A stretch of 64,000 bases of DNA from Candidatus Latescibacterota bacterium (lineage in GTDB: Bacteria; Latescibacterota; UBA2968; UBA8231). The notes below the pieces were generated by a model, which saw nothing but the letters and a program-made list of their open reading frames with translations, searched no databases and was not told where the DNA came from. The stretch lies in assembly GCA_965200315.1 (NCBI GenBank), contig OZ241362.1, positions 1,920,001 to 1,984,000 of the forward strand. Reading direction: 5' to 3'. Positions 25,386 to 31,306 of the stretch are shown here, piece after piece. How positions within the stretch are numbered: position 1 is the stretch's first letter; every line of letters starts with the position of its first letter. Both the position numbers and the translations under genes were made by a program.

Positions 25386-26288
25386 ATGGCTGAGTTGGAT
25401 ACGGTTTCCAAGCACCTGATTCAAACCTACCCCGCCGACTTCGTCCGTTTCACCATCCAGCGCGACGATATCGAAGTCGTCGAAGTGCTCGATACCGAGC
25501 AACCCACCGTCGAAACCCGCCGCACCGATAGCCTGATCCGCGTGCGTATCGGGGGCAAAGACGCCCTAGTCCACCACGAATTTCAAACCACCGATAGCAC
25601 CCGCCCCCCAATGCCCCGCCGCATGGCCGGCTACATCGGCCGCTGTATCGAGCGCTACGGACTGCCGGTGTACGCCTATGTCTTCTACCTGCGCCCCGCC
25701 GCCGGACGACGCGATCCGGGCTGCTACCTCCAAGCGCTTTGCGGCCACCAAATCTTCGTTCAATACAAGGTAATCCGCCTCAGCCAACAGGCCGGTCAGG
25801 CCGTGCTCGACCGGAAGCTTGCGGGCTTGTTGCCGTTGGCACCGTTGATGCAACCGCCGGCCGGACAGACCCCCAAGGCGTGGTTGGATCAATGTGTGGC
25901 CACGGCGGCGGCCGTGCCATTAGAACGGTCGATTAAGGCCAACTTTCTCGCTGGGTTAGCGATCTTGAGCGGATTAGTGTATAATCCTCAGACGATCACG
26001 GCCATTGTTTCCAAGGAGCATCTCATGGACCTCATCCACGAATCCTCGTTTGCCCAGTACCTCACCAAAAGTGCCCGTGAGCAAGGCATTGAGCAAGGCA
26101 TTGAGCAATGCCGCCGACTCAGTATCCAAGAAGTGTTGGCGTTGCGCTTTGGCCCCGGCGCGGCCCAATCCTTCGCCGCCGGCTTGGAGGCCATTGGCGA
26201 TGTACAGCGGCTCAAGCAGTTGCATCGGGCGGCTATACAGGTGTCCAGTCTCGAAGCCTTTAGGCACTTGGTAGAAGCCGACGAGTAA
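25386..26288 (+). CDS. rpn: Rpn/YhgA-like recombination-promoting nuclease (PD-(D/E)XK), long form
   Basis: RRTDSL..HHEFQT..MPRRMAGY, LLPLAPLM, EQGIEQGIEQ repeat, C-terminal LRFG..LKQLHRAAI. Confidence 0.85.
   Translation: MAELDTVSKHLIQTYPADFVRFTIQRDDIEVVEVLDTEQPTVETRRTDSLIRVRIGGKDALVHHEFQTTDSTRPPMPRRMAGYIGRCIERYGLPVYAYVFYLRPAAGRRDPGCYLQALCGHQIFVQYKVIRLSQQAGQAVLDRKLAGLLPLAPLMQPPAGQTPKAWLDQCVATAAAVPLERSIKANFLAGLAILSGLVYNPQTITAIVSKEHLMDLIHESSFAQYLTKSAREQGIEQGIEQCRRLSIQEVLALRFGPGAAQSFAAGLEAIGDVQRLKQLHRAAIQVSSLEAFRHLVEADE
26025..26288 (+). CDS. Predicted intragenic RpnS (C-terminal small protein, 87 aa)
   Basis: In-frame ATG 26025 preceded by AAGGAG (26013-26018) at 6-nt spacing, as in the described RpnL/RpnS organisation. 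Confidence 0.6.
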   Translation: MDLIHESSFAQYLTKSAREQGIEQGIEQCRRLSIQEVLALRFGPGAAQSFAAGLEAIGDVQRLKQLHRAAIQVSSLEAFRHLVEADE

Positions 26289-26323
26289 GGACGATCATGA
26301 TCATCTCTTCCAAGGAGCAGCTC

Positions 26324-26638
26324 ATGGACCTCATCCGCGAATCCCCGTTTGCCCGGCACCTCGCCGAATCCCTCCTCGCCAAAAGTGCCCGTGAGCAAGG
26401 TTTTGAGCAAGGTTTTGCGCAAGGTTTTGAGCAAGGTTTTGCGCAAGGTTTTGCGCAAGGCCGCCGACACTGTATCCAAGAAGTGTTGGCGTTGCGCTTT
26501 GACCCCGGCGCGGCCCAATCCTTCGCCGCCGGCTTGGAGGCCATTGGCGATGTGCAGCGGCTCAAGCAGTTGCATCGGGCGGCCATACAGGTGTCCAGTC
26601 TCGAAGCCTTTAGGCACTTGGTAGAAGCCGACGAGTAA
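26324..26638 (+). CDS. Stand-alone duplicated RpnS-like protein (104 aa)
   Basis: Tandem copy of the rpn 3' end with its own AAGGAG-N6-ATG and an expanded 12-bp repeat (G[AC]GCAAGGTTTT)5. Confidence 0.7.
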   Translation: MDLIRESPFARHLAESLLAKSAREQGFEQGFAQGFEQGFAQGFAQGRRHCIQEVLALRFDPGAAQSFAAGLEAIGDVQRLKQLHRAAIQVSSLEAFRHLVEADE

Positions 26639-26962: not shown

Positions 26963-27511
26963 TTAAACCTCGTCGCCTTTGGTCAGGCTTGGGAGCTCGC
27001 CGCGGGCCAGTTGGTCGTAGGCGCAGAGGACGTAGCGTTGGGTGCGGTATTCGCCAAATTCCTGCATCTCGTTGCGTTTGAGGGCTGGGAAGGACGCGCT
27101 CGGCGCGGGTGCGTCTAAAATCCATTCGAGGTCGGCGCGGTCTAGCTGGTATAGGTGCGCGAAAATGGCGTCTAGTTCGCACTTGAGGGCGTGGCGGCGG
27201 TCGTCGTCGTAGGAAAAGGGCGGGCCGTCGTAGCCAAGGTCGCGGGCGAAGCCTTCGAGGTCGGCGGCGGTGTACGTTAGCTCCAAGACGCGGGGGACGA
27301 TGAGTTCGACGTATCTGAGGCCGGGGAGCACTTCGTCGAGATAGGCTTCCGGCGGCAGGACGGGGAGTTGCTTGACGATGAAGAAGCTAAGATCTGTACC
27401 GCCAATCGCGGAGCGAGCCGCGAAGTCCAGCACAAGTGAATTGAGAGTTGAGACGAACAGGGCCGCAGCCTCAGCATCTTCGATATGGAGAAGTGGTGCC
27501 CGATCGCTCAT
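26963..27511 (-). CDS. Predicted separately initiated constant C-terminal polypeptide of the methyltransferase (182 aa)
   Basis: GAGGT RBS-like motif 5 nt before the in-frame ATG at 27511, which overlaps the TGA (27508-27510) ending the cassette-B frame (ATGA). Confidence 0.55.
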   Translation of the reverse strand: MSDRAPLLHIEDAEAAALFVSTLNSLVLDFAARSAIGGTDLSFFIVKQLPVLPPEAYLDEVLPGLRYVELIVPRVLELTYTAADLEGFARDLGYDGPPFSYDDDRRHALKCELDAIFAHLYQLDRADLEWILDAPAPSASFPALKRNEMQEFGEYRTQRYVLCAYDQLARGELPSLTKGDEV

Positions 27512-30500
27512 GCCTGACCTCGGGACGAACGAAGCGATGCCGGTCCTCTCATTAGTGGCATTGGTGGTTTTTCGGAAGGGGATGATCCAACGTCCAGAGT
27601 AATGACGGCTCCTTTGTGACCAAGACCCGTCTTTGGAATAAGAGACGCTATCACTGTTCTCTGGTTGGTTGCTGTCGTGATCAGTCTCAAAGCCAACTTC
27701 CATTCTTGAGTCGGACGACCGTTCCCTTGCCCAATCCACTTCGCGGCACGATGGTGCTGATCGTCGTCCGTATGTCGGTCGATCTGGCGATGACTCGTAT
27801 CGCGATGTAGTACCGCGACCGATCCGATCCGATCCGATCCGATCCGATCCGATCCGATCCGATCCGATCCGATCCGATCCGATCCGATCCGATCCGATCC
27901 GATCCGATCCGATCCGATCCGTCAAAAATGGGGCTGTTTCGGTTTTGTCAAGTCTTTTTTTCACTTCTTCTTCCGGCACCCAATACCTCGGCAAAGGCAC
28001 TTGCTGCGCGTCCTCCTTTTCCGCCGCGGTCATGGGCCGGGCCTTGCCGCCTTGGCGGTCTTTTTCCGAAGCCCCCTCGAATGTGGCGAAGCGGTGATCG
28101 TACTGGTGAAACAGCTTGGCCTCGTAGAGCGGCAAGCAGGCTTCAACAGGCTCGGTGCTCGCTGCGTGCTCCCCTCCGCCCTCCTGCTGTCTTGTCGCGG
28201 GACGCACAAACACATTGCCCACAAGCTGCCAGCCCGCTTCTTCCAACTGCTCGCGGGTGCGAAAGAGGCCAGAGTCACTTGTCATATTGAACATTTGCAT
28301 GAACGTGACGCCCCAAGGGTTCTCCTCCGGCTCTGCACCTTTCGCTTCCTTCCACAACACACCGGCGCGGTCGTACATCTTGCGGGCAATTTCCATGTCG
28401 CGGCGGGTGCGGAAGATGGGGCAGGTGCGGGTGTTGGGATTGAACAGGGCGAAATCCTCGGCTGACAGGGCGAACCGCCGCGCCGAATCGCGCAGTTGCT
28501 CGGCCTGGTACAGAAAGAAGGCGAACTCGGCCTGTGGACAGGGGCGGTCCGCGCCGGTCAGGGTGAGCAGGCAGAATTTGATGCGGCTGTCTATGCTCGG
28601 AAACACCTTTTCCCGGTTCTCAAAGTCGTAGAGGCTGACGAGCCTTTTCTTCGTAACAATTTCGTCGAAAAACGCTTTGGTCGAATTATCCGTGGCAATG
28701 CCGGAAGGTACGATCAGGCCGGCGTGTCCCTCTGGCGATAGGAGTCGGAGAAACGTTTCTGCAAACAAAGCATAGCTGTTCAATTTGCCGTACGCTGTCA
28801 ATGGATGTCGTCCGCCACTACGACAAAATGCGTCCCTTGCATCGTATATGCGACTATCCAACTGGTACTGCTTCCAAAGTGGAGGATTGTGTTCCGCGAG
28901 TTGGGAGATGGCTCTCTTCCGTTCCGCACCCGACAAATCGGCAATGCTGGGTGCGCGTACTGCAAAGTACTCTTTTTCCGCGAGTTGAGACACCTCCCAC
29001 GGCGGATTCCCCAACACCACGTCAAACCCCCCGTCCTGCATGACCTCGGCAAAGGCGAGATGCCAGTGAAAAAAGCAGTGCTCGCGGGCTAGCTTGCCAA
29101 CCGCCTCGCCGACGCCGGGCCGCATGACCAAGCCGGCTTTGAGGCGATTGAAATCCTCGATGAGCGGCACCGCGTCGGTGCTGCCCCGCGTCTTTTTTGC
29201 AAAATACGCCCCGACAAACAAATTCGCCCGCAGTTCCTCTCTTGTGCGCTCTTCCTGTACACGCATGGCCTCATACGCGGTGCGCTTGCGCTCTACATCC
29301 TCAATCGTCTCCTCGGGCATGTCGCCGAAGTCGAGGGTCGCTACCGCCACTTCGAGCAAACTATCTTCGTCGAACAAGTTGCCCTGTACCTCATCTCCCG
29401 CTTGGCGGTTGCGCTTTTTGAGCTCGGTACAAACAGCCTTGTCATCGCCGGTCAAGGGCTTGTACGCAGCGGCCGGAATGCCGTTTGCCATGATCTCCGG
29501 GTCGAGGACGCCCACGAGGCTGTCACCGTGCAGAATGTGCGCGTCGAGAAAGCTCAGCGGCTTGCCCGGCTCCACGGTTTCGATCCACAGGGCGGTCTTG
29601 CACAGCTCAACCGCCAGCGGATTGCGGTCCACGCCGTAGATGCAGTTTTGCACCACTTCCCGCAGCGCATGCTGACGCACGGTTTCGTCGGAAGTAGGCC
29701 CACTCGAGCCGAGGCTTACTATTTCGGCCGCCATGCGCCGCGCCGCGGCCAACAGGAAATGCCCCGAGCCGCACGCCGGATCGATGACTCGCAAGGCGAG
29801 GATCGCTTCTCTCGGATCTTCAGGATGATCGGCGACAGCTTGAGCTAAGACAGGCTCCAGCGTCGATTTGATCAGCTCATTTACCAGAGTCTCGGGCGTG
29901 TAGTACGAGCCCGTTAGCTTGCGCTCGGAGCCTCTGCTCTTTTCGCTGCTGAGGCCATCGCCAACAAAGCCAAAAGCACAAGGCGCAGCACTCATGTCCA
30001 CCACAGGCTGAAGCTCCAAGAGGCTTTCGTACACCGAGCCGAGCTCTTCGGTGCCCATGTCTCGATAGTTGACGCGGGCGAGAGCCTCGTCAGTGCGGAA
30101 GGACGCTAAGTTTCGCACCGCCTCCAAAAGCCGCTCATTGGCAATGAAGGCCTCTTCCAAAGCCGGGCACTGATCTCGGCGGAACAGGCCCCCTAAAGCC
30201 GGCAATCCCAGCGCAGGCTCCCCTCGGGCGAGCGCACCGAAGATAATCCGCAGGCCCACATAGAGATCATGGTGGTGGTCGTAATGGCGTCGGCGCAAAG
30301 CGCGTTCGCGCAACCGAGAAAGGGAATACCCCTCGGTAAACAGGTCGCGCTGTTTTTTGGTGGCCCCCGGGGTGTGCAGCAGGTCGCGCTCTTCGGCCGT
30401 AAAGAGAAAGAGCAGGCGATAAATGAACCGGAGAAGCTGCTGGAAATAGCCCTCGGGCGAGAGCGTACCCTCGCTGAGGGCGGCGCACAAAGCAGCGTTG

Positions 30501-31306
30501 TTCGGGTGCTGGAGGAAACCATTGCCGATCTGCCGCAGGGCTTTGGTGACGCCAGTGCGGAGGTTATCTAAGGCGCGTTCACCGGTCTGATGCGCTTGCG
30601 TGCGCCAGCTTTCGATGATGCAACTAGACGGCTGGCCATTGGTTGGCTGCAACCGGCTGGCATGAGCGGTGAGCCAAAGGGCCGCAAAATCCGCATAGAG
30701 CCCCTCCGCGAACATGCGGTCCAAGTCGGCCTCAATGCAGGCGGGCCGCGTCAGGCTGGAGTTGTCGCGGAGCAGGCGCAGCTTTGCACCGTTGGAAATG
30801 ATCCCCCACAAAGAAGCGTCCTCGGCGTTGAGGTACTCTTGCATCAATCCGTGCGGTGCTTGCTGGCGTCCCTCGTGCCCAAACCGCGGATCGGCCTTGT
30901 CGAGTTCAAAGCCGTGCGTGGTCAACAAAAGGGGCACTGACTCGCTACAAGCGCGGTGGGTTAGAGCAAACCGGCGATCTCCGAGCGCGACGCTCGCAGA
31001 CGCGGTCAAATCGCCGTAGCCGAGGATGTCGCGCAACAAAGGCACAAGCCATTCGCCCACGCCGACGTGGTCTGCGCTGAGTTCGCGGCGCGGACAGCGC
31101 TCGGAATAACTCGCGTACAGATCGTTGGCAATGCGCCAATAGCGGGCCAGTTCCTCTTTGAGCGCGAGGGACTTAGAGAGGCCGTAGGCCATGCCGGTCT
31201 GTTTGGGAGCGTCCAATGCGGCGATGGTCTGGAGAAACTCAGGATGCAAAATGCCGCCTTTGATCCTGATAGCAATGAATCCGTGATCTTTTCGCGTTCG
31301 TGCCAT
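26963..31306 (-). CDS. Type IIG/Eco57I-like N6-adenine DNA methyltransferase (DrmMI-like) with internal SSR and three frame-shifted specificity segments
   Basis: GSYYTP, motif I DPACGSGHFL, YGVDRNPLAVELCK, motif IV GNPPW, NPNTRTCPIFRT, LPLYEAK..HQYDHR, PRYWV, then (DRIGS)n. Confidence 0.92.
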   Translation of the reverse strand: MARTRKDHGFIAIRIKGGILHPEFLQTIAALDAPKQTGMAYGLSKSLALKEELARYWRIANDLYASYSERCPRRELSADHVGVGEWLVPLLRDILGYGDLTASASVALGDRRFALTHRACSESVPLLLTTHGFELDKADPRFGHEGRQQAPHGLMQEYLNAEDASLWGIISNGAKLRLLRDNSSLTRPACIEADLDRMFAEGLYADFAALWLTAHASRLQPTNGQPSSCIIESWRTQAHQTGERALDNLRTGVTKALRQIGNGFLQHPNNAALCAALSEGTLSPEGYFQQLLRFIYRLLFLFTAEERDLLHTPGATKKQRDLFTEGYSLSRLRERALRRRHYDHHHDLYVGLRIIFGALARGEPALGLPALGGLFRRDQCPALEEAFIANERLLEAVRNLASFRTDEALARVNYRDMGTEELGSVYESLLELQPVVDMSAAPCAFGFVGDGLSSEKSRGSERKLTGSYYTPETLVNELIKSTLEPVLAQAVADHPEDPREAILALRVIDPACGSGHFLLAAARRMAAEIVSLGSSGPTSDETVRQHALREVVQNCIYGVDRNPLAVELCKTALWIETVEPGKPLSFLDAHILHGDSLVGVLDPEIMANGIPAAAYKPLTGDDKAVCTELKKRNRQAGDEVQGNLFDEDSLLEVAVATLDFGDMPEETIEDVERKRTAYEAMRVQEERTREELRANLFVGAYFAKKTRGSTDAVPLIEDFNRLKAGLVMRPGVGEAVGKLAREHCFFHWHLAFAEVMQDGGFDVVLGNPPWEVSQLAEKEYFAVRAPSIADLSGAERKRAISQLAEHNPPLWKQYQLDSRIYDARDAFCRSGGRHPLTAYGKLNSYALFAETFLRLLSPEGHAGLIVPSGIATDNSTKAFFDEIVTKKRLVSLYDFENREKVFPSIDSRIKFCLLTLTGADRPCPQAEFAFFLYQAEQLRDSARRFALSAEDFALFNPNTRTCPIFRTRRDMEIARKMYDRAGVLWKEAKGAEPEENPWGVTFMQMFNMTSDSGLFRTREQLEEAGWQLVGNVFVRPATRQQEGGGEHAASTEPVEACLPLYEAKLFHQYDHRFATFEGASEKDRQGGKARPMTAAEKEDAQQVPLPRYWVPEEEVKKRLDKTETAPFLTDRIGSDRIGSDRIGSDRIGSDRIGSDRIGSDRIGRGTTSRYESSPDRPTYGRRSAPSCREVDWARERSSDSRMEVGFETDHDSNQPENSDSVSYSKDGSWSQRSRHYSGRWIIPFRKTTNATNERTGIASFVPRSGMSDRAPLLHIEDAEAAALFVSTLNSLVLDFAARSAIGGTDLSFFIVKQLPVLPPEAYLDEVLPGLRYVELIVPRVLELTYTAADLEGFARDLGYDGPPFSYDDDRRHALKCELDAIFAHLYQLDRADLEWILDAPAPSASFPALKRNEMQEFGEYRTQRYVLCAYDQLARGELPSLTKGDEV
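27508..27702 (-). other. Alternative specificity segment B (out of frame at n=20)
   Basis: WKLALRLITTATNQRTVIASLIPKTGLGHKGAVITL...* (TGA 27508-27510); this frame is open from the SSR onward. Confidence 0.8.
27687..27815 (-). other. Alternative specificity segment A (out of frame at n=20)
   Basis: RYYIAIRVIARSTDIRTTISTIVPRSGLGKGTVVRLKNGSWL* (TGA 27687-27689). Confidence 0.8.
27821..27920. repeat. Perfect pentanucleotide simple sequence repeat (GATCC)20 inside the methyltransferase gene
   Basis: 20 exact units; coding strand (GGATC)n reads G-S-D-R-I cyclically with no stop in any frame. Confidence 0.97.

What the first reader, a model, noticed from the sequence alone, without database searches (positions are those of the whole stretch)
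26963..27521. Built-in restart that could supply the constant C-terminal part in trans (split methyltransferase)
Frames A and B stop shortly after their segments (TGA 27687 and 27508), which would remove the last ~180 aa. However, segment C has GMS where A and B have GLG. That ATG (27511) has GAGGT 5 nt upstream and overlaps the frame-B stop as ATGA, the classic translational-coupling arrangement. It would yield a 182-aa protein (MSDRAPLL...LNSLVLDFAAR...) containing the constant part. A second in-frame ATG (MEVGF, ~27703) lies just before the frame-A stop. Inference: states A and B are two-chain enzymes rather than OFF states.
Basis: partly seen in the sequence, partly recalled or inferred. 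Interest (0 to 1): 0.82.

Follow-up and report, generated by a model that had tools for sequence, protein, structure and literature searches.

The report
Restart codon inside phase-variable methyltransferase gene
A defence methyltransferase gene carries a slippery 5-base repeat followed by three versions of one protein segment in three reading frames, and a conserved internal start codon that probably lets the shared tail be made as a separate chain when the repeat shifts the frame.

Summary
The 1447-aa DrmMI-like gene (26963-31306, minus strand) holds (CGATC)20. After it, one conserved segment is encoded three times, once per frame. Frame A stops at 27689-27687. Frame B stops at 27510-27508, overlapping ATG 27511 as ATGA, with GAGGT 5 nt upstream. 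The ATG opens a 182-aa frame.

Comparison with relatives shows this is not chance. Each segment shows a coding pattern of divergence in its own frame. None of 90 ordinary one-segment relatives has ATG at this codon; 19 of 20 multi-frame loci have ATG or GTG. The upstream frame's first stop overlaps it in 13 of 19 loci. A repeat whose unit is not a multiple of 3 accompanies 17 of 20 multi-frame loci against 3 of 90.

A natural frame-B N chain and its C chain are predicted to form one fold (0.90 against 0.00 for controls).

Best reading (confidence 0.55): state B is a two-chain enzyme made by termination-reinitiation or internal initiation. State A is less clear, because its stop lies 176 nt upstream and the MEVGF ATG is not conserved. 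No translation data exist. I found no description in print.

The parts
26963..31306 (-). DrmMI-like N6-adenine DNA methyltransferase gene. It reads as one 1447-aa frame at the assembled repeat number (state C).
   Evidence: ORF list. Pfam Eco57I 1e-21 and N6_Mtase 6.4e-10. PADLOC DrmMI PDLC02643 8e-72.
27820..27919 (-). Simple sequence repeat (CGATC)x20 inside the gene, read as (DRIGS)n. One unit more or less changes the downstream frame.
   Evidence: Repeats with units of 1, 4, 5, 8 or 10 nt sit at the same place in relatives: 17 of 20 multi-segment loci against 3 of 90 single-segment hits.
27708..27815 (-). Segment A, in frame +2 relative to the N-terminal frame. It would be in frame with n=19.
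   Evidence: Segment HMM score 29.7. Divergence at codon positions 1/2/3 is 0.448/0.198/0.576 across 6 loci.
27681..27689 (-). Frame-A double stop TGA-GAC-TGA, built from the L-R-L-I codons of segment B.
   Evidence: The second stop is present in 8 of 8 WIN-type loci. L099 keeps both stops as TAA by using CTA Leu codons.
27595..27702 (-). Segment B, in frame +1. It would be in frame with n=21. Its frame runs on to the TGA at 27510-27508.
   Evidence: HMM score 42.1. Divergence at codon positions 1/2/3 is 0.292/0.152/0.587 across 8 loci.
27488..27586 (-). Segment C, in the frame of the constant C-terminal part.
   Evidence: HMM score 62.4. Divergence at codon positions 1/2/3 is 0.331/0.152/0.598 across 9 loci.
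27517..27521 (-). GAGGT, a Shine-Dalgarno-like motif 5 nt upstream of the ATG. It includes the rare Arg codon AGG.
   Evidence: Pairing energy is -7.1 kcal/mol, the strongest of the gene's 20 internal ATGs. AGG accounts for 8 of 127 Arg codons.
27508..27511 (-). ATGA: the start codon ATG (27511-27509) overlapping the frame-B stop TGA (27510-27508).
   Evidence: Conserved in relatives.
26966..27511 (-). The proposed separate 182-aa C chain (MSDRAPLL...), a mostly helical domain. The stop codon is at 26963-26965.
   Evidence: AF2 gives pLDDT mostly above 90. The homologous L099 chain docks on its N chain at 0.90 against 0.00 for controls.
27701..27703 (-). Second in-frame ATG (MEVGF), 14 nt upstream of the frame-A stop.
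   Evidence: It is ATG in 3 of 8 loci and GTG or TTG in 5 of 8. The NTG is forced by the TGG of segment B.
27508..27696 (-). 62-aa frame-B ORF starting at TTG. It bridges the frame-A stop and the ATGA and could act as a ribosome relay in state A. This is speculative.
   Evidence: ORF list.

Best explanation
The gene encodes the methyltransferase of a three-gene DISARM-like defence system. A hypermutable 5-nt repeat sits in a permissive linker of its TaqI/CamA/PglX-like recognition module. The next structural element, a roughly 36-aa segment, is encoded three times downstream, once per reading frame. Whatever frame the repeat number sets, the N-terminal 1120 aa run into one version of the segment.

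Only frame C continues into the constant, highly conserved C-terminal domain. Frame B ends in a TGA that overlaps an ATG in frame C (ATGA). Ribosomes that terminate there, or new ones binding the GAGGT, start at 27511 and make the 182-aa domain as a second chain. That chain packs against the N chain and segment B to rebuild the normal fold.

State B is therefore a two-chain enzyme, not an OFF state. The repeat selects which segment version, and which connectivity, the enzyme has.

Shown here: the anatomy; its conservation; selection on each segment in its own frame; predicted compatibility of the two chains.

Inferred: initiation at the ATG; assembly in the cell; activity. For state A, the same C chain would have to come from uncoupled initiation or from a relay through the short frame-B ORF. 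That step is the weakest.
For: 1. Each segment diverges most at the third and least at the second codon position of its own frame. A: 0.448/0.198/0.576 across 6 loci. B: 0.292/0.152/0.587 across 8. C: 0.331/0.152/0.598 across 9. So frames A and B are translated into selected products.

2. At the homologous codon (segment HMM position 30), ATG occurs in 0 of 90 single-segment hits (V 44, A 12, C 10 and others). In 20 multi-frame loci, the segment that follows a segment in another frame has ATG in 17 and GTG in 2.

3. The upstream segment's frame has its first stop exactly overlapping that codon (A/GTGA) in 13 of 19 loci, 5-20 nt upstream in 3, and 71-74 nt upstream in 3.

4. Of the 120 best short (100-319 aa) relatives of the 182-aa frame, out of 1288 hits, 103 start exactly at this codon. 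This shows how widely a start-capable codon sits there. It is not independent evidence of initiation, because gene callers favour 4-nt overlaps.

5. Anti-SD pairing upstream of the codon has a median of -3.9 kcal/mol (18 loci) against -1.95 (90 single-segment hits), one-sided p=0.016. Local folding z-score is 0.03 against -0.38, p=0.04. The loci are related, so both p values overstate.

6. In the window, -7.1 is the strongest pairing of the gene's 20 internal ATGs and equals the best real gene starts nearby.

7. The AF2 model of residues 781-1447 has the repeat and the out-of-frame stretch (residues 343-457 of the fragment) at pLDDT below 50, and segment C plus the C domain confident.

8. Complex prediction used L099, a natural state-B locus: N chain 525 aa, C chain 177 aa. 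Score 0.90, best of 3 controls 0.00. The mark was reached by 58 of 80 solved complexes and 2 of 110 mismatched pairs. The runs agree in at least 80% of contacts, and partner pLDDT is at least 87. Segment B residues 466-482 and 493-500 are in the interface, together with the family's invariant NPNTRTCPIFRTRRD and QYDHR motifs. Residues 1-11 of the C chain are not.

9. If restart happens, the number of segments in the assembled enzyme is constant within each architecture: one in the window's type, two in the '2+1' type.
Against: - There is no ribosome-profiling, proteomic or N-terminal evidence. RNA-library contigs cover the region but show no start.
- GAGGT is not conserved. About half of the 18 loci have weak or no SD-like pairing.
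- Among 45 database N chains that end after an in-frame segment, I counted by eye about 20 that stop 1-16 aa after the segment's HMM match. These do not run up to the overlap.
- In fused '2+1' proteins, the residue at this position is Val in 25 of 50, Met in 16 and something else in 9. Met is therefore not universal, and I could not see the codons behind those Val.
- Ser AGY is 10 of 10 at the next codon, but AGY cannot easily change to TCN, so this reflects descent.
- The complex pass is what halves of one fold tend to give. The alignments I supplied came from fused full-length relatives.
- A true OFF frame exists in the '2+1' relatives: 44 of 120 N chains have no segment, though some of these are cut by contig ends. 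So OFF states are part of this family's repertoire.
- For state A there is no overlap. The nearest conserved start-capable codons are explained by the Trp and Leu codons of segment B.
Confidence: 0.55

Rival explanations
1. The C chain is not made in states A and B. The truncated N chain ending in segment A or B is itself the selected product, for example a methyltransferase with altered or reduced activity, or a regulator or decoy of the defence complex. The ATG is simply a Met residue of segment C.
For: Segments A and B are selected in their own frames. That requires only that the truncated chains are useful. About 20 of 45 truncated N chains, by my count by eye, end before the overlap. SD-like pairing is absent in about half of the loci. 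Val is common at the position in fused '2+1' proteins.
Against: The C domain is the most conserved part of the family. In the model it packs against segment B and against invariant N-part motifs through about 200 confident contacts, so an N chain alone would expose that surface. ATG is found in 0 of 90 single-segment relatives but ATG or GTG in 19 of 20 multi-frame loci. The stop overlaps it in 13 of 19.
Confidence: 0.2
2. The C chain is made, but by ordinary internal initiation at SD+ATG in every state, including the fused state C. It does not depend on termination of frame B. The ATGA overlap is a by-product of Met followed by a codon that begins with A.
For: In the window, GAGGT pairs at -7.1, as well as the best real starts nearby. 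Three of 19 loci keep the ATG although the upstream frame stops 71-74 nt earlier. This would also serve state A.
Against: SD-like pairing is weak or absent in many loci that keep the exact overlap, such as L098, L096, L001 and L101. The overlap is the first stop in 13 of 19 loci.
Confidence: 0.15
3. States A and B are plain OFF states. Segments A and B are decaying out-of-frame duplicates. The ATG, GAGGT and ATGA are coincidence.
For: Phase-variable methyltransferases are normally ON/OFF (abstracts listed). In the window alone, an ATG with a strong SD and a following A is only mildly unusual: 2 of 267 internal ATGs.
Against: Coding-type divergence in the frames of A and B is seen in 6 and 8 loci that share 50-70% identity. 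The frame-A stop is preserved through different codons in L099. ATG or GTG is conserved in 19 of 20 loci against ATG in 0 of 90. The multi-frame design is tightly associated with repeats: 17 of 20 against 3 of 90.
Confidence: 0.05

Closest known systems
SSR-driven phase-variable DNA methyltransferases: Type III mod, Type I hsdM/hsdS, and Type IIG Cj0031 of Campylobacter jejuni. From the abstracts of PMC5909438, PMC7383803 and PMC4889913 seen in search listings.
   Same: A hypermutable repeat, with a unit that is not a multiple of 3, sits inside the coding region of a defence or epigenetic methyltransferase. The assembled frame differs between relatives.
   Different: Those systems are described as ON/OFF switches. 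Here the downstream sequence offers a selected version of the next structural element in each frame, plus a conserved start codon for the remainder.
NgoAV Type I system of Neisseria gonorrhoeae: a polyG tract splits or fuses hsdS1/hsdS2 and changes specificity. From passages of PMC9577141.
   Same: A repeat-length change yields a truncated but active form or a fused form, not a simple loss. Function changes with frame.
   Different: In NgoAV the truncated HsdS works alone and hsdS2 is stated not to encode an active protein. There are no alternative-frame copies of one segment, and no restart is proposed.
Natural two-chain DNA methyltransferases M.AquI and M.EcoHK31I. From a passage of PMC3404938.
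   Same: An active methyltransferase is assembled from two polypeptides, split within or near the recognition region.
   Different: Those are C5-cytosine enzymes with a fixed split. Here the split would be conditional on the repeat number, in an N6-adenine DrmMI-like enzyme.
Class 1 DISARM DrmMI, including DrmMI-like genes varied by programmed inversions. From passages of PMC9881135, and from the search listing only for 10.1101/2021.12.28.474362.
   Same: The same protein family, in a helicase-rich defence operon. Variation of the methyltransferase gene within a population has been described for this family.
   Different: The described variation is by DNA inversion, not by a repeat plus multi-frame coding. 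The operon here has no DrmC and has a fused DEAD plus MZB/DUF1998 protein.
Translational coupling by overlapping stop and start codons (ATGA, TAATG) between adjacent bacterial genes. This is established knowledge, recalled and not drawn from any call.
   Same: A 4-nt ATGA overlap, with a Shine-Dalgarno-like motif inside the upstream reading frame.
   Different: Here both frames lie inside what is annotated as one gene. The upstream frame exists only at certain repeat numbers.

Membership tests
DrmMI (class 1 DISARM methyltransferase) / Eco57I-type N6-adenine methyltransferase | Sequence match to the family profile, including the SAM-binding and NPPW catalytic motifs. | tested here: met
   PADLOC DrmMI PDLC02643 8e-72. 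Pfam Eco57I 1e-21 and N6_Mtase 6.4e-10. DPACGSGHF and GNPPW are conserved in the alignment.
Class 1 DISARM system | An operon with DrmA (helicase), DrmB (DUF1998), DrmD (SNF2) and DrmMI, with DrmC (PLD) in many systems. This definition is recalled. | tested here: inconclusive
   The SNF2 neighbour scores best as DpdE (5.7e-210) and as DrmD at 4.8e-86. The 1760-aa neighbour has DEAD plus MZB/DUF1998 (PF09369, 2.9e-9) but scores best as DruE (1.9e-95). No PLD gene was seen among the ORFs I scanned. The further neighbours are ABC transporter genes.
SSR phase-variable gene | An in-frame repeat whose unit is not a multiple of 3, with tract length varying within a population. | tested here: inconclusive
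   The repeat is present. The frame state differs between related genomes and among database proteins: 29 fused, 45 truncated with a segment, 44 truncated without. Length variation within one population could not be measured. Read laying refuses the repeat, and contigs end inside it.
Translationally coupled gene pair (termination-reinitiation) | Stop of the upstream frame overlapping or adjacent to a start codon, with downstream synthesis depending on upstream translation. | tested here: inconclusive
   The overlap is present and conserved: 13 of 19 exact and 3 of 19 within 20 nt. Dependence on upstream translation cannot be tested with these tools.
Two-chain (split) DNA methyltransferase | Two separately translated polypeptides that associate and are both needed for activity. 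| not testable with these tools
   Only the predicted association is available: 0.90 against a best control of 0.00. The mark was reached by 58 of 80 solved complexes and 2 of 110 mismatched pairs. The runs agree in at least 80% of contacts, and partner pLDDT is at least 87. Separate translation and activity need experiments.

The most novel reading that the evidence does not exclude
This is a frame-multiplexed switch. A hypermutable repeat does not turn the defence methyltransferase off. It chooses which of three differently sequenced versions of a recognition-module segment, each written in its own reading frame, is joined to the catalytic core. A conserved stop-start overlap re-supplies the constant C-terminal domain as a second chain. 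The population therefore holds two or three functionally distinct enzymes, differing in target, regulation or sensitivity to phage inhibitors, from one gene. The design is widespread in environmental bacteria: hundreds of split forms are in the databases.
Probability: 0.4. Interest if true: 0.9.

Novelty: new variant of a known kind. Interest (0 to 1): 0.78.

Why it matters
If the restart is real, many genes now read as frameshifted or broken methyltransferase genes in genomes and metagenomes are working two-chain enzymes. Examples are the 103 of 120 short ORFs that begin at this codon and the 45 of 120 N chains that end after an in-frame segment.

Phase variation of a defence system would then switch between enzyme versions as well as on and off. 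It would also be a natural example of one gene using all three reading frames in series, with translational coupling as the device that makes frameshifts survivable.

The hypothesis is directly testable with three alleles (n=19, 20, 21) in a laboratory host.

Tried and rejected
- **Reads over the repeat.** I then laid the part beside it, as the tool suggested. Contigs from RNA and DNA libraries match the region but end inside the repeat. They show no repeat-number variation, no transcript ends and no start, so nothing can be concluded about expression or switching.
- **Programmed ribosomal frameshifting from frame B to C.** Rejected by eye. There is no slippery heptamer at ...GAGGTCAGGCATGA.
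- **MEVGF ATG as a conserved restart for state A.** Rejected as evidence. An NTG there follows from the Trp codon of segment B, and it is ATG in only 3 of 8 loci.
- **Ser codon choice as evidence.** AGY is 10 of 10, but I set this aside because AGY and TCN do not interconvert by single changes.
- **Sequence search of the PDB.** Nothing was found with the whole protein. The fold search gave only loose matches to CamA, PglX, M.BseCI and M.TaqI, with TM 0.26-0.49. That is enough to call the region a methyltransferase plus recognition module, but not enough to map DNA contacts of the segment.
- **Phylum-wide genome search.** Of 168 genomes, it added 2 further genomes with strong (E<1e-70) matches, G013 and G143, and no new multi-frame loci.
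- **Literature.** Searches found no description of alternative-frame segments or of a restart in a phase-variable methyltransferase. Only abstracts, listings and the passages named elsewhere in this report were read. Supplements are closed, so the locus tables of PMC9881135 were not seen.
Full report
**What is there**

The finding lies in the 3' part of a 1447-aa gene on the minus strand, 26963..31306. The protein matches Eco57I/N6_Mtase in Pfam (1e-21, 6.4e-10) and DrmMI in PADLOC (8e-72).

Two helicase genes lie upstream on the same strand:
- a 953-aa SNF2 helicase, scoring as DpdE at 5.7e-210 and as DrmD at 4.8e-86;
- a 1760-aa DEAD helicase with an MZB/DUF1998 domain, scoring best as DruE at 1.9e-95.

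Beyond them are ABC-transporter genes. I read this as a three-gene DISARM-like defence operon without a PLD gene.

Inside the gene, (CGATC)x20 occupies 27820-27919. Translating the minus strand in three frames after the repeat shows one conserved element three times in tandem, each time in a different frame:
- A: ...IAIRVIARSTDIRTTISTIVPRSGLGKGTVVR
- B: ...LALRLITTATNQRTVIASLIPKTGLGHKGAVI
- C: ...IPFRKTTNATNERTGIASFVPRSGMSDRAPLL

**The observation checks out**
- Frame A stops at TGA 27689-27687, and again at 27683-27681.
- Frame B stops at TGA 27510-27508.
- The M of GMSDR is ATG 27511-27509, so the two overlap as ATGA.
- GAGGT lies at 27521-27517, 5 nt upstream.
- The frame from the ATG is 182 aa.
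- A further in-frame ATG (MEVGF) is at 27703-27701.

By frame arithmetic (relative frames 2, 1, 0), n=19 puts segment A in frame, n=21 puts segment B in frame, and the assembled n=20 gives segment C and the full-length protein.

Within the window, 13 of 267 internal in-frame ATGs in 23 long ORFs have anti-SD pairing of -7.0 kcal/mol or stronger. Two of those are also followed by A. Site 27511 has the strongest pairing of the 20 internal ATGs of this gene (-7.1) and is as good as the best gene starts nearby. That alone would not be convincing.

**The family**

A search with residues 980-1447 found 5995 proteins at E<=1e-3 among 8000 scored. Among the best 120, many carry 5-aa peptide repeats at the same place, the signature of a 5-nt repeat.

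I fetched DNA for 80 genome loci, same-genus and same-phylum genomes and 14 metagenome loci. I then mapped a segment HMM and N- and C-terminal anchors in all three frames.

Most relatives, at about 40-45% identity, have one in-frame segment and no repeat. A subclade has several segments in different frames. Of 20 such loci, 17 have a repeat whose unit is not a multiple of 3 (1, 4, 5 or 8 nt) just upstream. Of the other three, two are cut by contig ends and one has a 10-nt unit. Only 3 of 90 single-segment hits have such a repeat.

Two architectures occur:
- **The window's type.** A, B and C lie in three frames, and C runs into the C-terminal part. Loci: WIN, L084, L095, L096/L097, L098, L099, L102, L005, and in part L100/L101.
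- **A '2+1' type.** Segment 1 lies in one frame. Segments 2 and 3 plus the C-terminal part lie in another, and the third frame is empty. Loci: L001-L004, L007, L008, L037, L085-L087.

Both types occur in the window's own genus.

**Are frames A and B really used?**

Mean pairwise divergence per site at codon positions 1/2/3 of each segment's own frame:

| Segment | Position 1 | Position 2 | Position 3 | Loci |
|---|---|---|---|---|
| A | 0.448 | 0.198 | 0.576 | 6 |
| B | 0.292 | 0.152 | 0.587 | 8 |
| C | 0.331 | 0.152 | 0.598 | 9 |

That is the pattern of protein-coding selection in three different frames of successive DNA stretches. The stretches between them, read in the 'wrong' frame, are what the full-length protein carries as a linker. 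AF2 gives that part (residues 343-457 of the 781-1447 fragment) pLDDT below 50, while segment C and the C domain are confident.

The frame-A stop is built from the L-R-L-I codons of segment B. The second stop is present in 8 of 8 loci. L099 uses CTA-AGG-CTA and so keeps two stops as TAA.

**The restart codon**

At segment HMM position 30, the M of GMSDR, single-segment relatives have V 44, A 12, C 10 and others. ATG occurs in 0 of 90, a start-capable codon in 13 of 90, and a +1-frame stop in 15 of 90.

In the multi-frame loci, the segment that follows a segment in another frame has ATG in 17 and GTG in 2 of 20. L008 was read by eye. The upstream frame is always the +1 frame.

The first stop of the upstream frame falls as follows:
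- exactly overlapping the codon (ATGA or GTGA) in 13 of 19 loci;
- 5-20 nt upstream in 3;
- 71-74 nt upstream in 3.

In the '2+1' type the same codon lies in segment 2, so a restart there would give segment 3 plus the C-terminal part. With restart, the assembled enzyme keeps a constant number of segments in each architecture.

Database gene calls reflect this. There are 1288 proteins of 100-319 aa matching the 182-aa frame at E<=1e-10. Of the best 120, 103 begin exactly at this codon: 38 with MSDRAP-like and 65 with MSNKAP-like starts. Gene callers favour 4-nt overlaps and print M for GTG. I take this only as proof that a start-capable codon is very widely conserved there and that non-fused states are common.

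Ranking relatives by the N-terminal part instead gave, among the best 120:
- 29 fused;
- 45 truncated after an in-frame segment;
- 44 truncated with no segment, some of them cut by contig ends;
- 2 without the anchor.

**Initiation signals**

Anti-SD pairing upstream of the codon has a median of -3.9 kcal/mol in 18 multi-frame loci against -1.95 at the homologous place in 90 single-segment hits (one-sided p=0.016). Local folding is slightly weaker: z 0.03 against -0.38, p=0.04. The loci are related, so these p values overstate. About half of the loci have no convincing SD.

**Would two chains fit?**

Foldseek places the model with methyltransferase-plus-recognition-domain enzymes:
- CamA 7rfm_B, E 4.4e-8, TM 0.38/0.45;
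- PglX 8c45_A, E 8.1e-6;
- M.TaqI 1g38_A, E 9.9e-5.

No solved relative was found by sequence.

L099 is assembled in state B, so its two frames are natural ORFs: an N chain of 525 aa (partial at its N terminus) and a C chain of 177 aa. Their predicted complex scored 0.90, with the best of 3 controls at 0.00. The mark was reached by 58 of 80 solved complexes and 2 of 110 mismatched pairs. The runs agree in at least 80% of contacts, and partner pLDDT is at least 87.

The interface includes segment B (residues 466-482, 493-500) and the invariant NPNTRTCPIFRTRRD and QYDHR motifs of the N part. The first 11 residues of the C chain are not in it. So segment B appears to supply its own last strand.

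Halves of one fold tend to pass such a test, and my alignments came from fused relatives. The result shows compatibility, and it shows that the C domain is integral to the fold. It does not show assembly in cells.

**Evidence against the reading**
- There are no translation data.
- The SD is not conserved.
- Among the 45 truncated N chains with a segment, about 20 by my count by eye end 1-16 aa after the segment's HMM match, not at the overlap.
- In 50 fused two-segment proteins, the residue at this position is V 25, M 16, L 4, S 3, T 1 and A 1. I could not see those codons. The two Val loci with DNA both use GTG.
- The '2+1' type has a genuinely empty third frame, so OFF states exist in the family.
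- For state A there is no overlap. The stop lies 176 nt upstream of the ATG. The MEVGF codon is ATG in 3 of 8 loci and GTG or TTG in 5 of 8. An NTG there is forced by the Trp codon of segment B, and a restart there would add segment C to the second chain. A 62-aa TTG ORF in frame B (27508-27696) could relay ribosomes from the frame-A stop to the ATGA, but nothing tests that.

**Verdict**

The wider picture is a repeat that selects among alternative-frame versions of a recognition-module segment, with a conserved start for the constant domain. I did not find it described. The nearest precedents are:
- ON/OFF phase-variable methyltransferases;
- the NgoAV hsdS polyG switch (PMC9577141, passages);
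- the fixed two-chain enzymes M.AquI and M.EcoHK31I (PMC3404938, passage);
- DrmMI genes varied by inversion (PMC9881135, passages).

Noticed in passing
L100:838-1700 and L101:301-1150: Two metagenome loci carry a complete segment C plus C-terminal domain, ending in a stop. This is followed, in yet another frame, by a second segment ('TTWIQAFRDITNATNERT...') and a second C-terminal domain of the '2+1' kind. It is either a spare alternative tail or a recombination remnant.
   Followed up: partly
L086, L087, L002, L003 (segment 1, HMM position 30): In '2+1' loci the empty third frame ends in a TGA that overlaps the CTG or TTG Leu codon at the same structural position of segment 1 (CTGA/TTGA, 4 of 5 loci with 'GLSDSG'). 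Stops thus recur at the same place in successive segments, which could funnel ribosomes from frame to frame.
   Followed up: no
P0042, P0045 (proteins): Two relatives have three segments in one frame and no peptide repeat. Their middle segment has Ala or Val, not Met, at the restart position.
   Followed up: partly
window 25386-26288 (+) and 26297-26638 (+): Two adjacent paralogous ORFs just downstream of the methyltransferase gene have identical C-terminal halves and short in-frame tandem repeats (EQGI / EQGFAQGF, about 26395-26460). Pfam gave no match for the longer one.
   Followed up: no
G000:C1:3971147-3971746 (locus L082/L122): The same genome holds a second DrmMI-like gene of the ordinary one-segment kind. 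It has a 1331-aa open frame and is 43-44% identical in the C-terminal part.
   Followed up: no
window 27820-27919 and homologous sites in L002, L004, L005, L037, L084, L086, L087, L099-L102: The repeat unit at this one site differs widely between relatives: CGATC, TCGGG, GAGCC, GACAG, GACAA, AACAG, GCCGA, AGAC, ACAG, GAAC, AGAGCAGC, poly-C and poly-G. The tract therefore seems to have been re-invented or replaced many times while the downstream design stayed.
   Followed up: partly
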